Positions 6,971-9,385 of a stretch of DNA of 37,037 nucleotides are shown here, piece after piece. Position 1 is the stretch's first letter; each line of letters starts with the position of its first letter. Location of the stretch: assembly GCA_964385005.1 (NCBI GenBank), contig CAYLMF010000003.1, positions 3,521 through 40,557 of the forward strand, read 5' to 3'. A program made the position numbers and the translations under genes. The notes beneath the pieces were generated by a model. That model was not told where the DNA came from, ran no database searches, and was given only the letters and a program-made list of their open reading frames with translations. The DNA is from an uncultured Bdellovibrionales bacterium (lineage in GTDB: Bacteria; Patescibacteriota; Minisyncoccia; Moranbacterales; UBA1568).

Positions 6971-7714
6971 TTAGTACTTCTTCCACACCATTTCAAATAT
7001 TTGCCTCAAAGCCTTAGCTACATCTTCATTCTCTATAGCCATGCCCTGCAGGTTCTTGTAATCCTCTATCCGCACTAAATCACCTGTTACGGTAATAGCT
7101 ACTTCTGAGGAATAGTCTTTGGTAGAAATTTGCTTAATGTTTCGCCCGTACGCTTGGTCGGTCTGACGATAGCCCTCGAGCTGCTCATCTGCTGGCGCCA
7201 AGCCTCGCATCCGAATACTGTGCCGCTGCATTTTCTTGGGGTACTCTTCCTTGAAGTATTCTGTCAGTTCTGGTGAAGCATTCTTATCCGTAGCCCAAAA
7301 ACCAAGCATTTCCTCTCCCGCATGCTCCTTAAATCTATACTCAAGCATTTGCTTCATACCTTCTGTACCTTCAAAGTAGAGAGCGCTCACCTTATTCTTC
7401 TTACCTTTGGCCATGGCCAAAATCTCAGGCAAAAAAGCTCTTGCTTGAGAGAGCTCGTGTGAAGCTCGGGCAAAGGCCTCCTCAGGAGTACGAGCTACAT
7501 AGTGCTGGGTCTTCATCTGAGAAACCTTGAGCACCAGGCCTTTTTCAATCAGCTCATCCAATATGACATAGGTAGTAGGCTTTTTGAGACCACTCTTCAC
7601 CGCCACCCTATATGCAGTAGACTGGCCCAACTGCAAAAGAGCCGCGTAGACCGCTACTTGCTTATCGTTGAGACCAAGTGTTTTGAGCGCTTCTTCTATG
7701 TTCATAGACTTCAT
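6971..7714 (-). CDS. TrmB-family (winged-helix) transcriptional regulator
   Basis: The N-terminus LKTLGLNDKQVAVYAALLQLGQSTAYRVAVKSGLKKPTTYVILDELIEKGLV is the typical TrmB-type HTH. The track ORF starts at a TTG at 7741. In-frame ATGs at 7714 (preceded by GAGAG) and 7705 are more likely starts. Confidence 0.7.
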   Translation of the reverse strand: MKSMNIEEALKTLGLNDKQVAVYAALLQLGQSTAYRVAVKSGLKKPTTYVILDELIEKGLVLKVSQMKTQHYVARTPEEAFARASHELSQARAFLPEILAMAKGKKNKVSALYFEGTEGMKQMLEYRFKEHAGEEMLGFWATDKNASPELTEYFKEEYPKKMQRHSIRMRGLAPADEQLEGYRQTDQAYGRNIKQISTKDYSSEVAITVTGDLVRIEDYKNLQGMAIENEDVAKALRQIFEMVWKKY

Positions 7715-7830
7715 GGTACTCTCTTTTTCATATTTAGTCAATATTTTTGATGAATATTTTGTATTATATTATTTATGCTTTATATAAAGTATATTATACG
7801 AATATATGAGATAAATACTAGACATTATTA

Positions 7831-7859
7831 TTGACTCTTTGTCACAAAAAGGGTATACT
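7831..7859 (+). promoter_or_regulatory. Near-consensus sigma70-type promoter (P1 of the small-gene island)
   Basis: TTGACT (7831-7836), a 17-nt spacer, then TATACT (7854-7859). The spacer contains CACAAAAAGGG. The inverted repeat TCACA-N12-TGTGA (7842-7863) overlaps the -10 element. Confidence 0.65.
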
Positions 7860-7916
7860 GTGATGTTGAGTTGAGCAATCACTCACAAACGTTCTTTTCA
7901 CAAACAGGGGGTCACC

Positions 7917-8174
7917 ATGTATCTAGTTATTTCAAAAAAGGCAGATGTATTCTTCGGTGGATTTGAGTACGGACTCTTCGACAAGGAGTTCCCTTCCACC
8001 GAAGAAGCTCTCGTCTGGGTCAGAGAACGTATGAGCCGAGAAGCTCAGGCAAGGCTCACGAGTGACTACCCAGTGTTCCAGTCATTCACCACCTACAAAA
8101 TATTTTCGGAGGTCCAAATCGAAAGTATCGAAAAGGATCCCGAGGATATCTGGGACCAGGGCATAGAGCCCTAG
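7917..8174 (+). CDS. Hypothetical small acidic protein (85 aa)
   Basis: The ATG is preceded by AGGGGG (7906-7911) at 5-nt spacing and lies downstream of P1. The stop is followed 11 nt later by the repeated hairpin. I recognise no family. Confidence 0.6.
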   Translation: MYLVISKKADVFFGGFEYGLFDKEFPSTEEALVWVRERMSREAQARLTSDYPVFQSFTTYKIFSEVQIESIEKDPEDIWDQGIEP

Positions 8175-8183
8175 TTCCTAAAC

Positions 8184-8224
8184 TTGGCAGAAGTGTCTCA
8201 TCGTATTCACTTCTGCCCTCCATT
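8184..8224 (+). repeat. Copy 1 of a 41-nt perfect direct repeat containing a 10-bp hairpin
   Basis: TTGGCAGAAGTGTCTCATCGTATTCACTTCTGCCCTCCATT. GGCAGAAGTG (8186-8195) pairs with CACTTCTGCC (8208-8217) around a 12-nt loop. It is identical to 8709-8749. No T-run follows it. Confidence 0.9.
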
Positions 8225-8615
8225 AAGTCTTGAAAAATATTCAAGACTTATAGAGAAACCGTTCTTTCAAAAAGGAGTTGATTAATCGTAAAAAATGTAT
8301 ATATCCAATGATAAATTATTCATTTATCACATGGATAAACTCACATGATGCGCCTTCGTCGTATCTGTCGTCATTTGGGACGCGTACATCGTGGTCTTGA
8401 AATGGCATCCACGGTCCTCGGACTGTGGATCATACTACGAGATCTTCTCTAGTATGGGCGGGGTGTTTGAGTTTCAACCTGGCAACAGAATGGAAGCTCC
8501 AGGGAACGTGACAACCTGAACCAATAGTCACTCTGGGAAAGTATGTAAACACATACTTCTCCCCTCAACTGAATGCATTACATGGTGTAGTGCATTCTGA
8601 GAGGGAGTAACAAAA

Positions 8616-8705
8616 ATGGCAGCAGCAAACAGTGGTTCAGTTGGTCGCGGCAAACCATTCAGGGTGACCGAGGAGGAAAAACCTCCTGAGACCAAACCTC
8701 TATAA
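8616..8705 (+). CDS. Candidate micro-ORF (29 aa: MAAANSGSVGRGKPFRVTEEEKPPETKPL)
   Basis: The ATG is preceded by GGGAG (8603-8607) at 8-nt spacing. The TAA stop lies 5 nt before copy 2 of the repeated hairpin, the same geometry as the 85-aa gene and copy 1. It is too short for the ORF track and is unverified. Confidence 0.35.
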   Translation: MAAANSGSVGRGKPFRVTEEEKPPETKPL

Positions 8706-8708
8706 TCT

Positions 8709-8749
8709 TTGGCAGAAGTGTCTCATCGTATTCACTTCTGCCCTCCATT
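8709..8749 (+). repeat. Copy 2 of the 41-nt perfect direct repeat / hairpin
   Basis: It is identical to 8184-8224, with stem arms at 8711-8720 and 8733-8742. The downstream sequence ATAGAGA..CGTTCTT..AAAC..AGGGGG is also partly shared with copy 1 and with the 5' UTR of the gene starting at 7917. Confidence 0.9.
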
Positions 8750-8812
8750 GAGACTATGACTTCTGTCAGAGTTTCATAGAGATCTCGTTCTTAAACAAAC
8801 CAGGGGGATATC

Positions 8813-8995
8813 ATGCTGAAACAGCTATTTCTTTTCTCGACAGCACAAGCTGTTTTCGTTTTCCTTGTCATGTATTACATGATGGAGAAAATCGTTCCCA
8901 TTCTCACCGCTACCGGAGGATTAGCGTTCGTATCCTCCACTTCATTGAGATTGCAAGCTTCTTGTTATTTCATAGAGTATAGAAGGTTTTTCTAA
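8813..8995 (+). CDS. Hypothetical small membrane protein (60 aa, two hydrophobic segments)
   Basis: AGGGGG (8802-8807) lies 5 nt before the ATG. The sequence LFLFSTAQAVFVFLVMYYMM ... ILTATGGLAFVSS suggests two TM helices. Confidence 0.55.
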   Translation: MLKQLFLFSTAQAVFVFLVMYYMMEKIVPILTATGGLAFVSSTSLRLQASCYFIEYRRFF

Positions 8996-9039: not shown

Positions 9040-9068
9040 TTGACTTATACACAAAAAGGGTGTATAAT
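9040..9068 (+). promoter_or_regulatory. Near-consensus sigma70-type promoter (P2 of the small-gene island)
   Basis: TTGACT (9040-9045), a 17-nt spacer, then TATAAT (9063-9068). The perfect inverted repeat TATACAC-N7-GTGTATA (9046-9066) overlaps the -10 element. The spacer shares CACAAAAAGGG with P1. Confidence 0.65.
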
Positions 9069-9122
9069 ATAAAGTCACAGTAGTAATTTCACTCCTGTCA
9101 CAAAATTCCAAGGGGAATATGA

Positions 9123-9326: not shown

Positions 9327-9351
9327 CTTGAGCCAACGTGCTCACAAAAAG

Positions 9352-9385
9352 GCCGCCCATCGCAACTGCGATTCGGGCGGCTTTT
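9352..9385. terminator. Bidirectional intrinsic terminator shared by the 67-aa gene (+) and the metalloprotease-like gene (-)
   Basis: GCCGCCC (9352-9358) pairs with GGGCGGC (9375-9381), with an inner ATCGC/GCGAT stem. AAAAA lies 5' of the hairpin and TTTT lies 3' of it. Confidence 0.7.

What the first reader, a model, noticed from the sequence alone, without database searches (positions are those of the whole stretch)
8278..8615. ORF-poor, hairpin-dense and GC-richer 340-nt stretch: candidate structured RNA(s) or a nest of micro-ORFs
No frame has an ORF of 60 codons or more across 8175-8812. Within 8278-8615 I can fold a chain of independent hairpins:
- GATAAAT-N5-ATTTATC (8310-8328)
- ATCCACGGTCC..GGACTGTGGAT (8406-8430)
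- CATACTA-N12-TAGTATG (8431-8456)
- GGGAAAGTATGT-AAAC-ACATACTT(C)TCCC (8535-8563)
- GAATGCA-N13-TGCATTC (about 8570-8598)

None is followed by a T-run. The central part is visibly more GC-rich than the surrounding AT-rich spacers. Only tiny ORFs exist here and they lack SD sites, for example a 35-codon ORF at 8345-8452 (MMRLRRICRHLGRVHRGLEMASTVLGLWIILRDLL) and a 30-codon ORF at 8308-8400.

This could be a novel ncRNA, a long structured leader, or the antisense/structured-UTR arrangement typical of type I toxin-antitoxin loci.
Basis: seen in the sequence. Interest (0 to 1): 0.6.

Follow-up and report, generated by a model that had tools for sequence, protein, structure and literature searches.

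The report
Structured micro-ORF cassette with intercistronic hairpins
The hairpin-dense stretch is not one RNA gene but one "cassette" of a small-gene operon in a tiny-genome (Moranbacteria-like) bacterium: a probably real 35-codon gene folded into a conserved four-way RNA junction, followed by a copy of an uncatalogued double-hairpin spacer that recurs between genes across the whole order.

Summary
The hairpins are at the stated places, and the + strand folds far better than shuffles (z -5.7 here, -7.8 in the one full orthologue).

The stretch is composite:
- 8278-8344 is a fast-evolving AT-rich linker.
- 8345-8532 is a constrained RNA domain, about 95% identical where neutral sites are about 60%. 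It has a four-way junction (closing stem plus three hairpins, compensatory changes in one) and a GNRA-capped hairpin.
It keeps frame and length in four variants, and its replacements are conservative (p about 0.005), so it is probably translated. It has no SD.
A model built without this copy finds it. The motif occurs in 18 of 50 genus genomes and 27 of 151 order genomes with strong covariation, is absent from Rfam, and here buries the SD of the next 29-codon gene.

Function is inferred: cis-acting mRNA structures for silencing, processing and stability.

No antisense promoter, homologue or pseudogene signal was found. Expression could not be tested. This scan has noted similar motifs in other Moranbacteria genomes.

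The parts
8184..8255 (+). Intercistronic double-hairpin motif, copy M1. It lies after the 85-aa ORF 7917-8174. This is context, outside the finding.
   Evidence: Repeat D2. The fold is two abutting hairpins with a CUC...GAG clamp, z -7.6. Model R2 scores it 85.5 bits.
8256..8344 (+). Linker. It holds the GTTCTTT box (8261-8267), a relic SD AAGGAG (8272-8277) with no usable start codon, and an AT-rich spacer.
   Evidence: 8278-8344 is 46% identical to G015, with a 10-nt indel that removes the hairpin. G015 has TGgTATACT at the aligned place. The promoter is an inference only; the consensus scan found none.
8345..8452 (+). 35-codon ORF (orf35). It starts ATGATG, has no SD and stops at TAG 8450-8452. 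It lies entirely inside the four-way junction.
   Evidence: Frame and length are kept in G015 and in two metagenome variants, P0006 and P0009. The 9 replacements have a mean BLOSUM62 of +0.33, against -1.5 and -1.3 when the same substitutions are read in the other two frames. With a matched mutation spectrum p = 0.005.
8346..8466 (+). Four-way junction. Closing stem P1 is 8350-8360 with 8457-8466 (plus a tentative P0, 8346-8349 with 8527-8530). The hairpins are H1 8370-8406, H2 8407-8430 and H3 8431-8456, abutting without linkers.
   Evidence: This is the RNAalifold consensus of G000 and G015. The isolated stretch 8345-8470 folds to exactly this structure, -52.8 kcal/mol, z -5.1. H1 has 3 compensatory pairs in a segment that is only 51% identical. 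H2 shows G-U to A-U, and to G-U in P0009. P1, H3 and P0 are invariant, so they are untested by covariation.
8457..8532 (+). Conserved 3' element. It comprises the G-rich 3' strand of P1, H4 8469-8499 (inner CUG-GCAA-CAG GNRA hairpin) and H5 8500-8518. The 11-mer at 8480-8490 is invariant.
   Evidence: It is 95% identical to G015, against 60% at third codon positions of the neighbouring regulator gene. H5 has one compensatory pair. The 11-mer and G-rich box recur in G064 and G062, each time 6-10 nt after the stop of a different ORF. In G064 the surrounding fold is not kept, z -1.1.
8533..8603 (+). Its basal helix 8560-8567 with 8598-8606 extends into the SD of the next gene.
   Evidence: Model R2, built from six copies without M2, finds it full-length at 20.6 bits, E 0.002-0.003. 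It also finds the G015 copy at 17.3 bits. There are compensatory changes between G000 and G015 in both hairpins.
8603..8705 (+). SD GGGAG (8603-8607) and the 29-codon ORF 8616-8705 (orf29).
   Evidence: Changes against G015 are synonymous-type, with third-position identity 0.62 against 0.91-0.96 at positions 1 and 2. It is conserved in G064. The three G of the SD are paired with probability at least 0.96 in both species.
8709..8781 (+). Motif copy M3. This is context.
   Evidence: R2 scores it 92.7 bits.
8912..8977 (+). Fourth, weak motif copy (M4) inside the 3' end of the 60-aa ORF 8813-8995. G015 lacks exactly 8782-8977.
   Evidence: R2 scores it 19.8 bits, E 0.003-0.005. The deletion is bounded by the two CATAGAG motif ends.

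Best explanation
The stretch is the second cassette of a + strand operon of small orphan genes in a reduced-genome Moranbacteria-like bacterium. That identity comes from another agent's note; I did not check it.

Its payload is a real but SD-less 35-codon gene. The gene's mRNA is selected to fold into a four-way junction that pairs the start-codon region with a G-rich box just after the stop codon. This would keep translation low unless the fold is opened.

The payload is followed by a conserved 3' element. After that comes a diverged copy of an order-wide double-hairpin motif that sits right after stop codons between cistrons. Here the motif's basal helix swallows the SD of the next gene, the 29-codon ORF.

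The motif most likely acts in cis on the polycistronic RNA as a processing or 3'-end-protection site. RNase III is encoded in the genome. Cutting or melting the helix would also be what frees the next gene's SD.

Shown: the anatomy, conservation and covariation; the coding-type substitution pattern; and the motif membership.

Inferred: transcription as one RNA, translation of orf35, silencing by the fold, and processing.
For: Operon and cassette logic:
- There is a consensus promoter at 7831-7859 and a canonical terminator only at 9329-9380.
- The motif occurs four times in the island.
- G015 lacks exactly one motif-bounded unit, and G064 and G062 carry other genes in the first slot.

RNA structure:
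- The strand-specific stability is high.
- The isolated junction folds as predicted.
- All 61 consensus pairs hold in both species, with 4 compensatory and 3 half-compensatory pairs.
- At least nine G-U pairs exclude the - strand.
- 8404-8532 is 95-96% identical, against a 60% neutral background.

Coding:
- Frame and length are kept in four variants.
- Replacements are conservative, p 0.005, and the other frames score -15 and -16.
- In three species an ORF stop lies 6-10 nt before the same 3' element.

Motif:
- The M2-free model detects M2.
- Across 28 copies, 91.5% of cells are paired, 19 of 23 pairs change on both sides, and 0 of 500 shuffles reach the observed values.
- 14 of 19 foreign copies start 0-22 nt after a stop on the same strand. 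They are usually followed by GTTCTTT and an SD plus start codon, and three times by a canonical terminator, so the motif is not itself the terminator.
- The motif is present in 18 of 50 genus genomes and 27 of 151 order genomes.

SD and enzymes:
- The orf29 SD is paired with probability at least 0.96.
- RNase III is present and Rho was not found.
Against:
- Only two full nucleotide sequences of the junction exist. P1, H3 and P0 never vary, and the shuffle control for the two-sequence alignment is weak (28 of 500).
- orf35 has no SD, while its neighbours have strong ones.
- Its changes fall 8:2:8 over codon positions, with only 3 synonymous codons. The coding test rests on 9 replacements and was chosen after seeing the data.
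- Start-codon occlusion is only partial: pairing probability is 0.4-0.9 in G000, and the first AUG is largely open in G015.
- No peptide homologue was found in 107 family genomes or in 1.8 billion representatives, apart from its own orthologues.
- The patchy near-identity could partly reflect recombination, because the 3' half of the 85-aa gene is also almost identical.
Confidence: 0.5

Rival explanations
1. The ~190-nt domain 8345-8532 is a purely non-coding cis-acting RNA. It would be a structured leader or sensor, or a stability domain, for the downstream 29-codon gene or the operon. The 35-codon frame would be open by accident.
For: - There is no SD, and the start codons sit in predicted helices.
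- Nucleotide-level conservation runs unbroken across the stop codon into the 3' element.
- The only diverged part of the ORF is a hairpin kept by compensatory changes.
- The chance of no new stop arising is 0.64-0.72, so an open frame in G015 is not surprising.
- The SD of orf29 is sequestered just downstream, as in translational riboswitch platforms.
- Other Moranbacterales arrays hold short motif-bounded payloads without SD-led ORFs.
Against: - The substitutions are conservative specifically in the ORF frame, p 0.005.
- In G064 the same 29-codon gene and motif occur without the junction, so the gene does not need it.
- Blocking the orf35 region in silico does not change SD pairing, so no structural link from the domain to the platform is predicted.
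- The domain is confined to 2 of 50 genus genomes, unlike metabolite sensors.
Confidence: 0.27
2. A type I toxin-antitoxin-like module. orf35 would be a small toxic peptide. Its mRNA would be kept inert by long-range pairing, and an antisense RNA from the - strand would act as antitoxin.
For: - The ORF is small, with a basic amphipathic N-terminus and a hydrophobic C-terminal half.
- The start region is paired with sequence 3' of the stop. This resembles the 5'-3' long-distance interactions used to describe type I toxin mRNAs (PMC8594479; PMC5416894, PMC6733600).
- It lies in an accessory, lineage-restricted island.
- There are weak language-model leads to TisB and DinQ clusters, at scores of 0.75-0.76, well below the tool's 0.9 mark.
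- G015 has a 9-of-12 antisense promoter-like site at the equivalent of about 8514-8487.
Against: - No antisense promoter passes the scan in this genome. The G015 site is within chance expectation (3.0 +/- 1.9 per region), and its -10 hexamer falls to 3 of 6 matches in G000.
- The conserved G-U pairs make the - strand fold poorly.
- There is no SD, so there is no SD/anti-SD device.
- The best 19-residue hydropathy is 1.3-1.6, with only about 12 contiguous apolar residues, so no clear membrane helix.
- There are no tandem copies.
- There is no match to Pfam or PADLOC models.
Confidence: 0.12
3. An independent trans-acting small RNA. It would be transcribed from its own extended -10 promoter at 8309-8317 and end at the double hairpin.
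For: - A TG-n-TAnAnT element is kept at aligned positions in an otherwise 46%-identical linker.
- The domain is compact and stable.
- It contains an 11-nt invariant single-strand or GNRA element.
Against: - No -35 element is present, and the promoter scan found nothing.
- There is no terminator after the domain.
- The motif that follows is elsewhere an operon-internal element.
- Distribution is too narrow to test targets.
Confidence: 0.08
4. A decayed pseudogene, or chance hairpins in a spacer.
For: - M1 ends with a relic SD that has no start codon.
- The orf35 frame read on to the TAG at 8525-8527 (7 nt before the motif hairpin) would give about 60 codons with two internal stops.
- The linker 8278-8344 evolves neutrally.
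Against: - 95% identity against a 60% neutral background, with both internal stops conserved.
- Compensatory changes.
- z-scores of -5 to -8.
- No tblastx or tblastn similarity to anything in the genome or to the G064 gene in the same slot.
- Nothing found in phages, plasmids or viral contigs.
Confidence: 0.03

Closest known systems
Intercistronic mRNA hairpins that protect or process polycistronic RNA. Examples are REP hairpins between malE and malF in E. coli, the puf operon stem-loops, and RNase III sites of phage T7 mRNAs (own knowledge).
   Same: - Stable stem-loops placed just after stop codons inside operons.
- No U-tract.
- Same strand as the genes.
- Repeated within a locus.
- RNase III is encoded in the genome.
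   Different: - The two-hairpin architecture is fixed, with a conserved CUC...GAG clamp, a pyrimidine tail and a downstream GTTCTTT box.
- It is kept by covariation across an order of CPR bacteria.
- It is not a genome-wide repeat in this genome; it is local to one island.
- Processing or stabilisation is untested.
Double-hairpin and structured-spacer elements noted earlier by this scan in other Moranbacteria and Uhrbacteria genomes (e1-1015314, e1-823200, e1-2752179).
   Same: - Two adjacent hairpins between small cassette genes.
- Compensatory changes.
- The motif marks where genes differ between relatives.
   Different: I could not compare sequences with those notes, so identity of the motif family is not established. 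Here one motif-bounded slot carries a structured micro-ORF rather than an ordinary SD-led gene.
Type I toxin mRNAs (hok/Sok; aapA1/IsoA1 of Helicobacter pylori; T1TAdb descriptors, PMC8594479, PMC5416894, PMC6733600).
   Same: A small ORF inside a highly folded mRNA. The translation start is paired with a distant 3' segment.
   Different: There is no SD/anti-SD pair, no supported antisense RNA, no clear transmembrane helix and no homology. Toxicity is unknown.
Translational riboswitch and RNA-thermometer expression platforms that sequester the SD (own knowledge).
   Same: The SD of the 29-codon gene is buried in a long helix. A competing upstream pairing exists: GGGA at 8535-8538 with UCCC at 8560-8563.
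   Different: No conserved aptamer is shared beyond two species. In-silico unfolding of the upstream domain does not release the SD. There is no Rfam match.
Integron cassette arrays with attC sites (own knowledge).
   Same: Short promoterless units, each ending in a structured repeat, are gained or lost exactly at the repeats between close relatives.
   Different: No integrase is seen among the neighbouring genes I scanned. The repeat is conserved as RNA on the coding strand and carries RBS-proximal boxes. attC core sites were not looked for.

Membership tests
   8533-8603 is matched over the full model at 20.6 bits, E 0.002-0.003. The G015 orthologue scores 17.3 bits. The MFE fold has the same architecture as the other 7 local copies.
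   14 of 19 foreign copies meet this. M2 lies 80 nt after the orf35 stop. A TAG in the same frame sits 5-7 nt before it. G064 and G062 show the same 85-96 nt gap, filled by the 3' element.
   The SD GGGAG at 8603-8607 overlaps the clamp, and the ATG is at 8616.
Type I toxin-antitoxin system | A cis- or trans-encoded antisense RNA antitoxin with its own promoter. | tested here: not met
   There is no - strand promoter-like site in 8278-8800. G015 has one chance-level site. This was a consensus scan only, so the result is weak.
Type I toxin-antitoxin system | A small hydrophobic, usually membrane-helix, toxin peptide. | tested here: inconclusive
   The peptide is 35 aa. The Kyte-Doolittle 19-residue maximum is 1.3 (G000) and 1.6 (G015), with about 12 contiguous apolar residues. 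Atlas leads to TisB and DinQ reach only 0.75-0.76.
Type I toxin-antitoxin system | The SD is sequestered by an anti-SD, and/or there is a 5'-3' long-distance interaction in the toxin mRNA (PMC8594479). | tested here: inconclusive
   orf35 has no SD. Pairing of the start region with 8457-8466 is predicted in both species but never varies, so it has no covariation support.
Type I toxin-antitoxin system | Toxicity on expression, neutralised by the RNA. | not testable with these tools
   This needs an experiment.
Any Rfam 15 family (riboswitches, ribozymes, tmRNA, 6S, leaders) | A covariance-model score at or above the gathering threshold. | tested here: not met
   There are 0 hits at gathering in the window. 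The best hit at E up to 10 is alpha_tmRNA at 14 bits against a threshold of 50. Nothing was found in the G015 orthologue or at 12 foreign motif loci. The genome's real tmRNA is on contig C37, and ARAGORN finds none here.
Riboswitch (generic) | An aptamer conserved across many lineages upstream of functionally related genes. | tested here: not met
   Model R1 finds the domain only in G000 and G015, among 50 genus genomes and 151 order genomes.
Pseudogene of a known protein | Translated similarity to an intact gene. | tested here: not met
   tblastx against the own genome, and tblastn of the G064 slot gene, find nothing. Pfam and PADLOC find nothing.

The most novel reading that the evidence does not exclude
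Motif-bounded cassette arrays of Moranbacterales can carry RNA payloads. Under this reading the 190-nt four-way-junction domain is a new sensor or effector RNA: riboswitch-like or protein-binding, with an invariant GNRA-hairpin box. Together with the SD-burying motif copy it would gate the 29-codon gene. The arrays themselves would exchange units at the double-hairpin motif like an integron without a known integrase.
Probability: 0.12. Interest if true: 0.75.

Novelty: new variant of a known kind. Interest (0 to 1): 0.5.

Why it matters
CPR bacteria have tiny genomes, and almost nothing is known about their RNA-level gene control.

This stretch ties together two things. The first is an uncatalogued, covariation-supported intercistronic RNA motif found across an order of CPR bacteria. 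It marks the borders of exchangeable small-gene units, and it can hide the next gene's ribosome-binding site. The second is a case of a micro-protein gene under double constraint, from both peptide and RNA fold.

If the motif is a processing or stability signal, it gives a handle on how these organisms set expression within operons of orphan small genes. If orf35 proves toxic or the junction proves to be a sensor, it would be the first such element I know of in this group. I did not search the literature on that point.

It is still a local, lineage-restricted element of an ordinary functional kind, and nothing about its function has been shown.

Tried and rejected
- Housekeeping RNA (tmRNA, RNase P, 6S, SRP). 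Rejected because of the weak 14-bit alpha_tmRNA hit, no ARAGORN hit, the real tmRNA on another contig, and presence in only 2 of 50 genus genomes.
- Pseudogene of the 174-aa gene that fills the slot in G064, or of any paralogue. No similarity was found.
- Phage, plasmid or viral origin. No match.
- Translational coupling at a distance. The idea was that a ribosome on orf35 frees the G-rich strand, which then releases the orf29 SD. Constrained folding leaves SD pairing unchanged in both species.
- A genome-wide REP-like repeat. In this genome the motif occurs only in this island.
- The motif as an intrinsic terminator. It has no U-tract, three foreign copies are followed by a canonical terminator, and the island has its own canonical terminator.
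- Rho-dependent termination at the pyrimidine tail. No Rho was found, in a genome that is 91% complete.
The genome contigs pattern scan returned only the G064 record.
- G064 keeps only the 11-mer and G-box of the 3' element, not its fold.

Full report
**Setting.** The window is contig C3 of an 833-kb, 71-contig genome that is 91% complete. An earlier agent of this scan filed it under Moranbacteria (CPR); I did not test that. Around the finding, polA and a TrmB-type regulator lie on the - strand, and tsaE and a pilB-type ATPase lie further on.

Between 7750 and 9380 sits a + strand island of small orphan genes:
- a consensus promoter at 7831-7859
- an 85-aa ORF at 7917-8174
- the stretch in question
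- a 29-codon ORF at 8616-8705 with a strong SD
- a 60-aa ORF at 8813-8995
- a second promoter at 9040-9068
- a 67-aa ORF, and a canonical bidirectional terminator.

None of these proteins matches Pfam or PADLOC.

**Observation.** No ORF of 60 codons crosses 8175-8812. No T-runs follow the hairpins. The centre is GC-richer than the flanking spacers.

The + strand of 8340-8620 folds at -107.4 kcal/mol, z -5.7, with no shuffle as good. The - strand reaches only z -3.6. Rfam finds nothing at gathering scores and only chance-level hits otherwise. ARAGORN finds nothing, and the genome's tmRNA is elsewhere.

**Relatives.** By BLAST and by a covariance model (R1), the core 8343-8534 exists only in one other species of the genus, G015. 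It was not found in the other 48 genus genomes or in 150 sampled genomes of the order. G015 is 82% identical over the island.

Third codon positions of the neighbouring regulator gene are 60% identical, which I take as the near-neutral level. Against that, the stretch is a mosaic:
- 8278-8344: 46%, with a 10-nt indel
- 8345-8370: 100%
- 8371-8403: 51%
- 8404-8452: 96%
- 8453-8532: 95%
- 8533-8616: 71%.

**Part 1, the linker (8256-8344).** After motif copy M1 come a GTTCTTT box and an AAGGAG, as before real genes of the island. No usable start codon follows, and the sequence evolves at the neutral rate.

A TG-n-TAnAnT element is kept at aligned positions and could be an extended -10 promoter. 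This is inference only; the promoter scan did not flag it.

**Part 2, the structured core (8345-8532).** RNAalifold on the two species gives the following:
- a closing stem, 8350-8360 with 8457-8466
- three abutting hairpins: H1 8370-8406, H2 8407-8430, H3 8431-8456
- H4 8469-8499, with an inner CUG-GCAA-CAG hairpin
- H5 8500-8518.

The junction folds to the same structure when 8345-8470 is taken alone (z -5.1). The G015 sequence folds even better (z -7.8).

All 61 pairs hold in both species. H1 has three compensatory pairs, and it is exactly the 51%-identity segment. H5 has one compensatory pair, and H2 has one G-U to A-U change. A metagenome variant, P0009, has a Thr-to-Ala change whose first-position A-to-G would turn an H2 A-U pair into G-U. 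At least nine G-U pairs mean the fold exists only on the + strand.

Caveat: with two sequences the shuffle control is weak (28 of 500), and the closing stem and H3 never vary.

**The 35-codon ORF.** The ORF 8345-8452 lies inside this fold. It has no SD. Its AUGAUG is partly paired, with probability 0.4-0.97 in G000; in G015 the first AUG is mostly open behind an unpaired A-run.

It keeps frame and length in G015 and in two further 35-aa variants from JGI metagenomes. An open frame alone is not informative, because the chance of no new stop is 0.64-0.72. The nine replacements, however, are conservative: mean BLOSUM62 is +0.33. The same substitutions read in the other two frames give sums of -15 and -16. 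Redistributing the observed substitution types over the variable window gives p = 0.005.

In G064 and G062 a different, ordinary ORF stops 6-10 nt before the same G-rich box and invariant 11-mer (8480-8490 here). So orf35 occupies the position of a gene relative to this 3' element.

I therefore think orf35 is translated (about 60%) and that peptide and RNA fold are both under selection. The peptide has a basic amphipathic N-terminal half and about 12 apolar residues. Its best 19-residue hydropathy is 1.3-1.6, which is no clear membrane helix. It has no relatives beyond its orthologues. The language-model search gives only weak leads of 0.81 or below, with TisB and DinQ clusters at 0.75-0.76.

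**Part 3, the last two hairpins (8533-8603).** The 47-nt repeat at 8184 and 8709 is the first half of a 72-nt module. The module is a 10-bp hairpin, a C/U-rich tail, and a second hairpin whose base is clamped by CUC...GAG.

All eight copies in G000, G015 and G064 fold this way although the second hairpin differs in sequence. A covariance model built from the six obvious copies, leaving out the candidate, finds three more sites:
- 8533-8603 at full length: 20.6 bits, E about 0.002
- its G015 orthologue: 17.3 bits
- a fourth copy at 8912-8977.

G015 lacks exactly 8782-8977, the unit between two motif ends.

The model finds the motif in 18 of 50 genomes of the genus. It finds it in 27 of 151 sampled genomes of the order, covering 16 of 76 genera, often in arrays spaced 250-450 nt. 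On 28 copies, 91.5% of cells pair, 19 of 23 pairs change on both sides, and no shuffle or slid register comes close. That alignment was fitted to the model, which favours the structure.

In 14 of 19 foreign copies the motif starts 0-22 nt after a stop codon on the same strand. It is usually followed by GTTCTTT and the next RBS, and three times by a canonical terminator, so it is not itself the terminator. It is not in Rfam. In this genome it is confined to this island.

In copy M2 the clamp is extended: 8560-8567 pairs with 8598-8606. The three G of the orf29 SD are therefore paired with probability at least 0.96 in both species.

**Mechanism.** Shown:
- a composite of constrained + strand RNA structures
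- a coding-type substitution pattern in orf35
- membership of hairpins 4 and 5 in an order-wide intercistronic motif
- unit gain and loss at motif borders.

Inferred: the island is transcribed from 7831. The motif acts on the polycistronic RNA as a processing or 3'-protection site. The genome encodes RNase III and no Rho was found. In M2, cutting or melting of the helix is what exposes the orf29 SD. The four-way junction keeps the SD-less orf35 poorly translated.

I tested one specific coupling idea: that ribosomes on orf35 free the G-rich strand, which then opens the orf29 SD. Constrained folding rejects it.

**Rivals.**
- A purely non-coding leader or stability domain remains serious (0.27). 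It would be favoured if new orthologues break the frame.
- A type I toxin-antitoxin reading (0.12) has only the predicted mRNA-fold resemblance to published descriptors (PMC8594479). There is no antisense promoter here, only a chance-level one in G015. There is no SD/anti-SD pair and no clear membrane helix.
- An independent sRNA (0.08) rests on the unverified extended -10.
- A pseudogene or chance explains only the linker.

**What could not be done.** So there is no expression evidence, and the known further relatives could not be aligned.

**Comparison and verdict.** The closest known things are three:
- intercistronic stabiliser or processing hairpins
- the double-hairpin spacers this scan noted earlier in other Moranbacteria and Uhrbacteria genomes
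- for the core, folded type I toxin mRNAs.

The stretch is a new variant of known kinds. It is real, conserved and uncatalogued, but local in its core part and of unproven function.

Noticed in passing
window 8782-8977 (and 8912-8977): G015 lacks exactly this unit, which holds most of the 60-aa ORF plus a weak fourth motif copy. The gap is bounded by two CATAGAG motif ends, so whole cassettes appear to be gained or lost at the motif.
   Followed up: partly
window 7891-7897, 8261-8267, 8789-8794; many foreign loci: A GTTCTT(T) box recurs about 5 nt after the motif and also in the 5' UTR behind the island's first promoter. It lies 10-30 nt upstream of the SD. Its function is unknown.
   Followed up: partly
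window 8040-8230: The 3' half of the 85-aa gene and motif copy M1 are almost 100% identical to G015. Third-position identity over the whole 85-aa gene is 0.84, against 0.60 in the neighbouring regulator. This points to nucleotide-level constraint or recent recombination.
   Followed up: no
L135 / L015 (G064 contig): The public record of this close relative (about 1-Mb genome, same genus by the tool's grouping) is titled 'uncultured Bdellovibrionales bacterium'. That sits oddly with the CPR/Moranbacteria placement noted elsewhere and may be a mislabel.
   Followed up: no
L173:650-811 (G067); L177:2738-2931 (G121): Other Moranbacterales motif arrays hold short payloads of 160-195 nt with long hairpins and no SD-led ORF (z about -2). 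One contains GTGGAACAGAAAT, which resembles the invariant 11-mer at 8480-8490.
   Followed up: partly
window 7831-7866 and 9040-9075: Both island promoters carry an inverted repeat across the spacer and -10 region (for example TATACAC...GTGTATA). These look like operator sites, and a TrmB-type regulator is encoded divergently at 6971-7741.
   Followed up: no
L147 (G062), L015 (G064): The island next to the TrmB-type regulator is syntenic in at least four species but holds different first-slot genes: 85 aa here, 174 aa in G064, and an ORF listed as 160 aa in G062. It behaves as a variable slot.
   Followed up: partly
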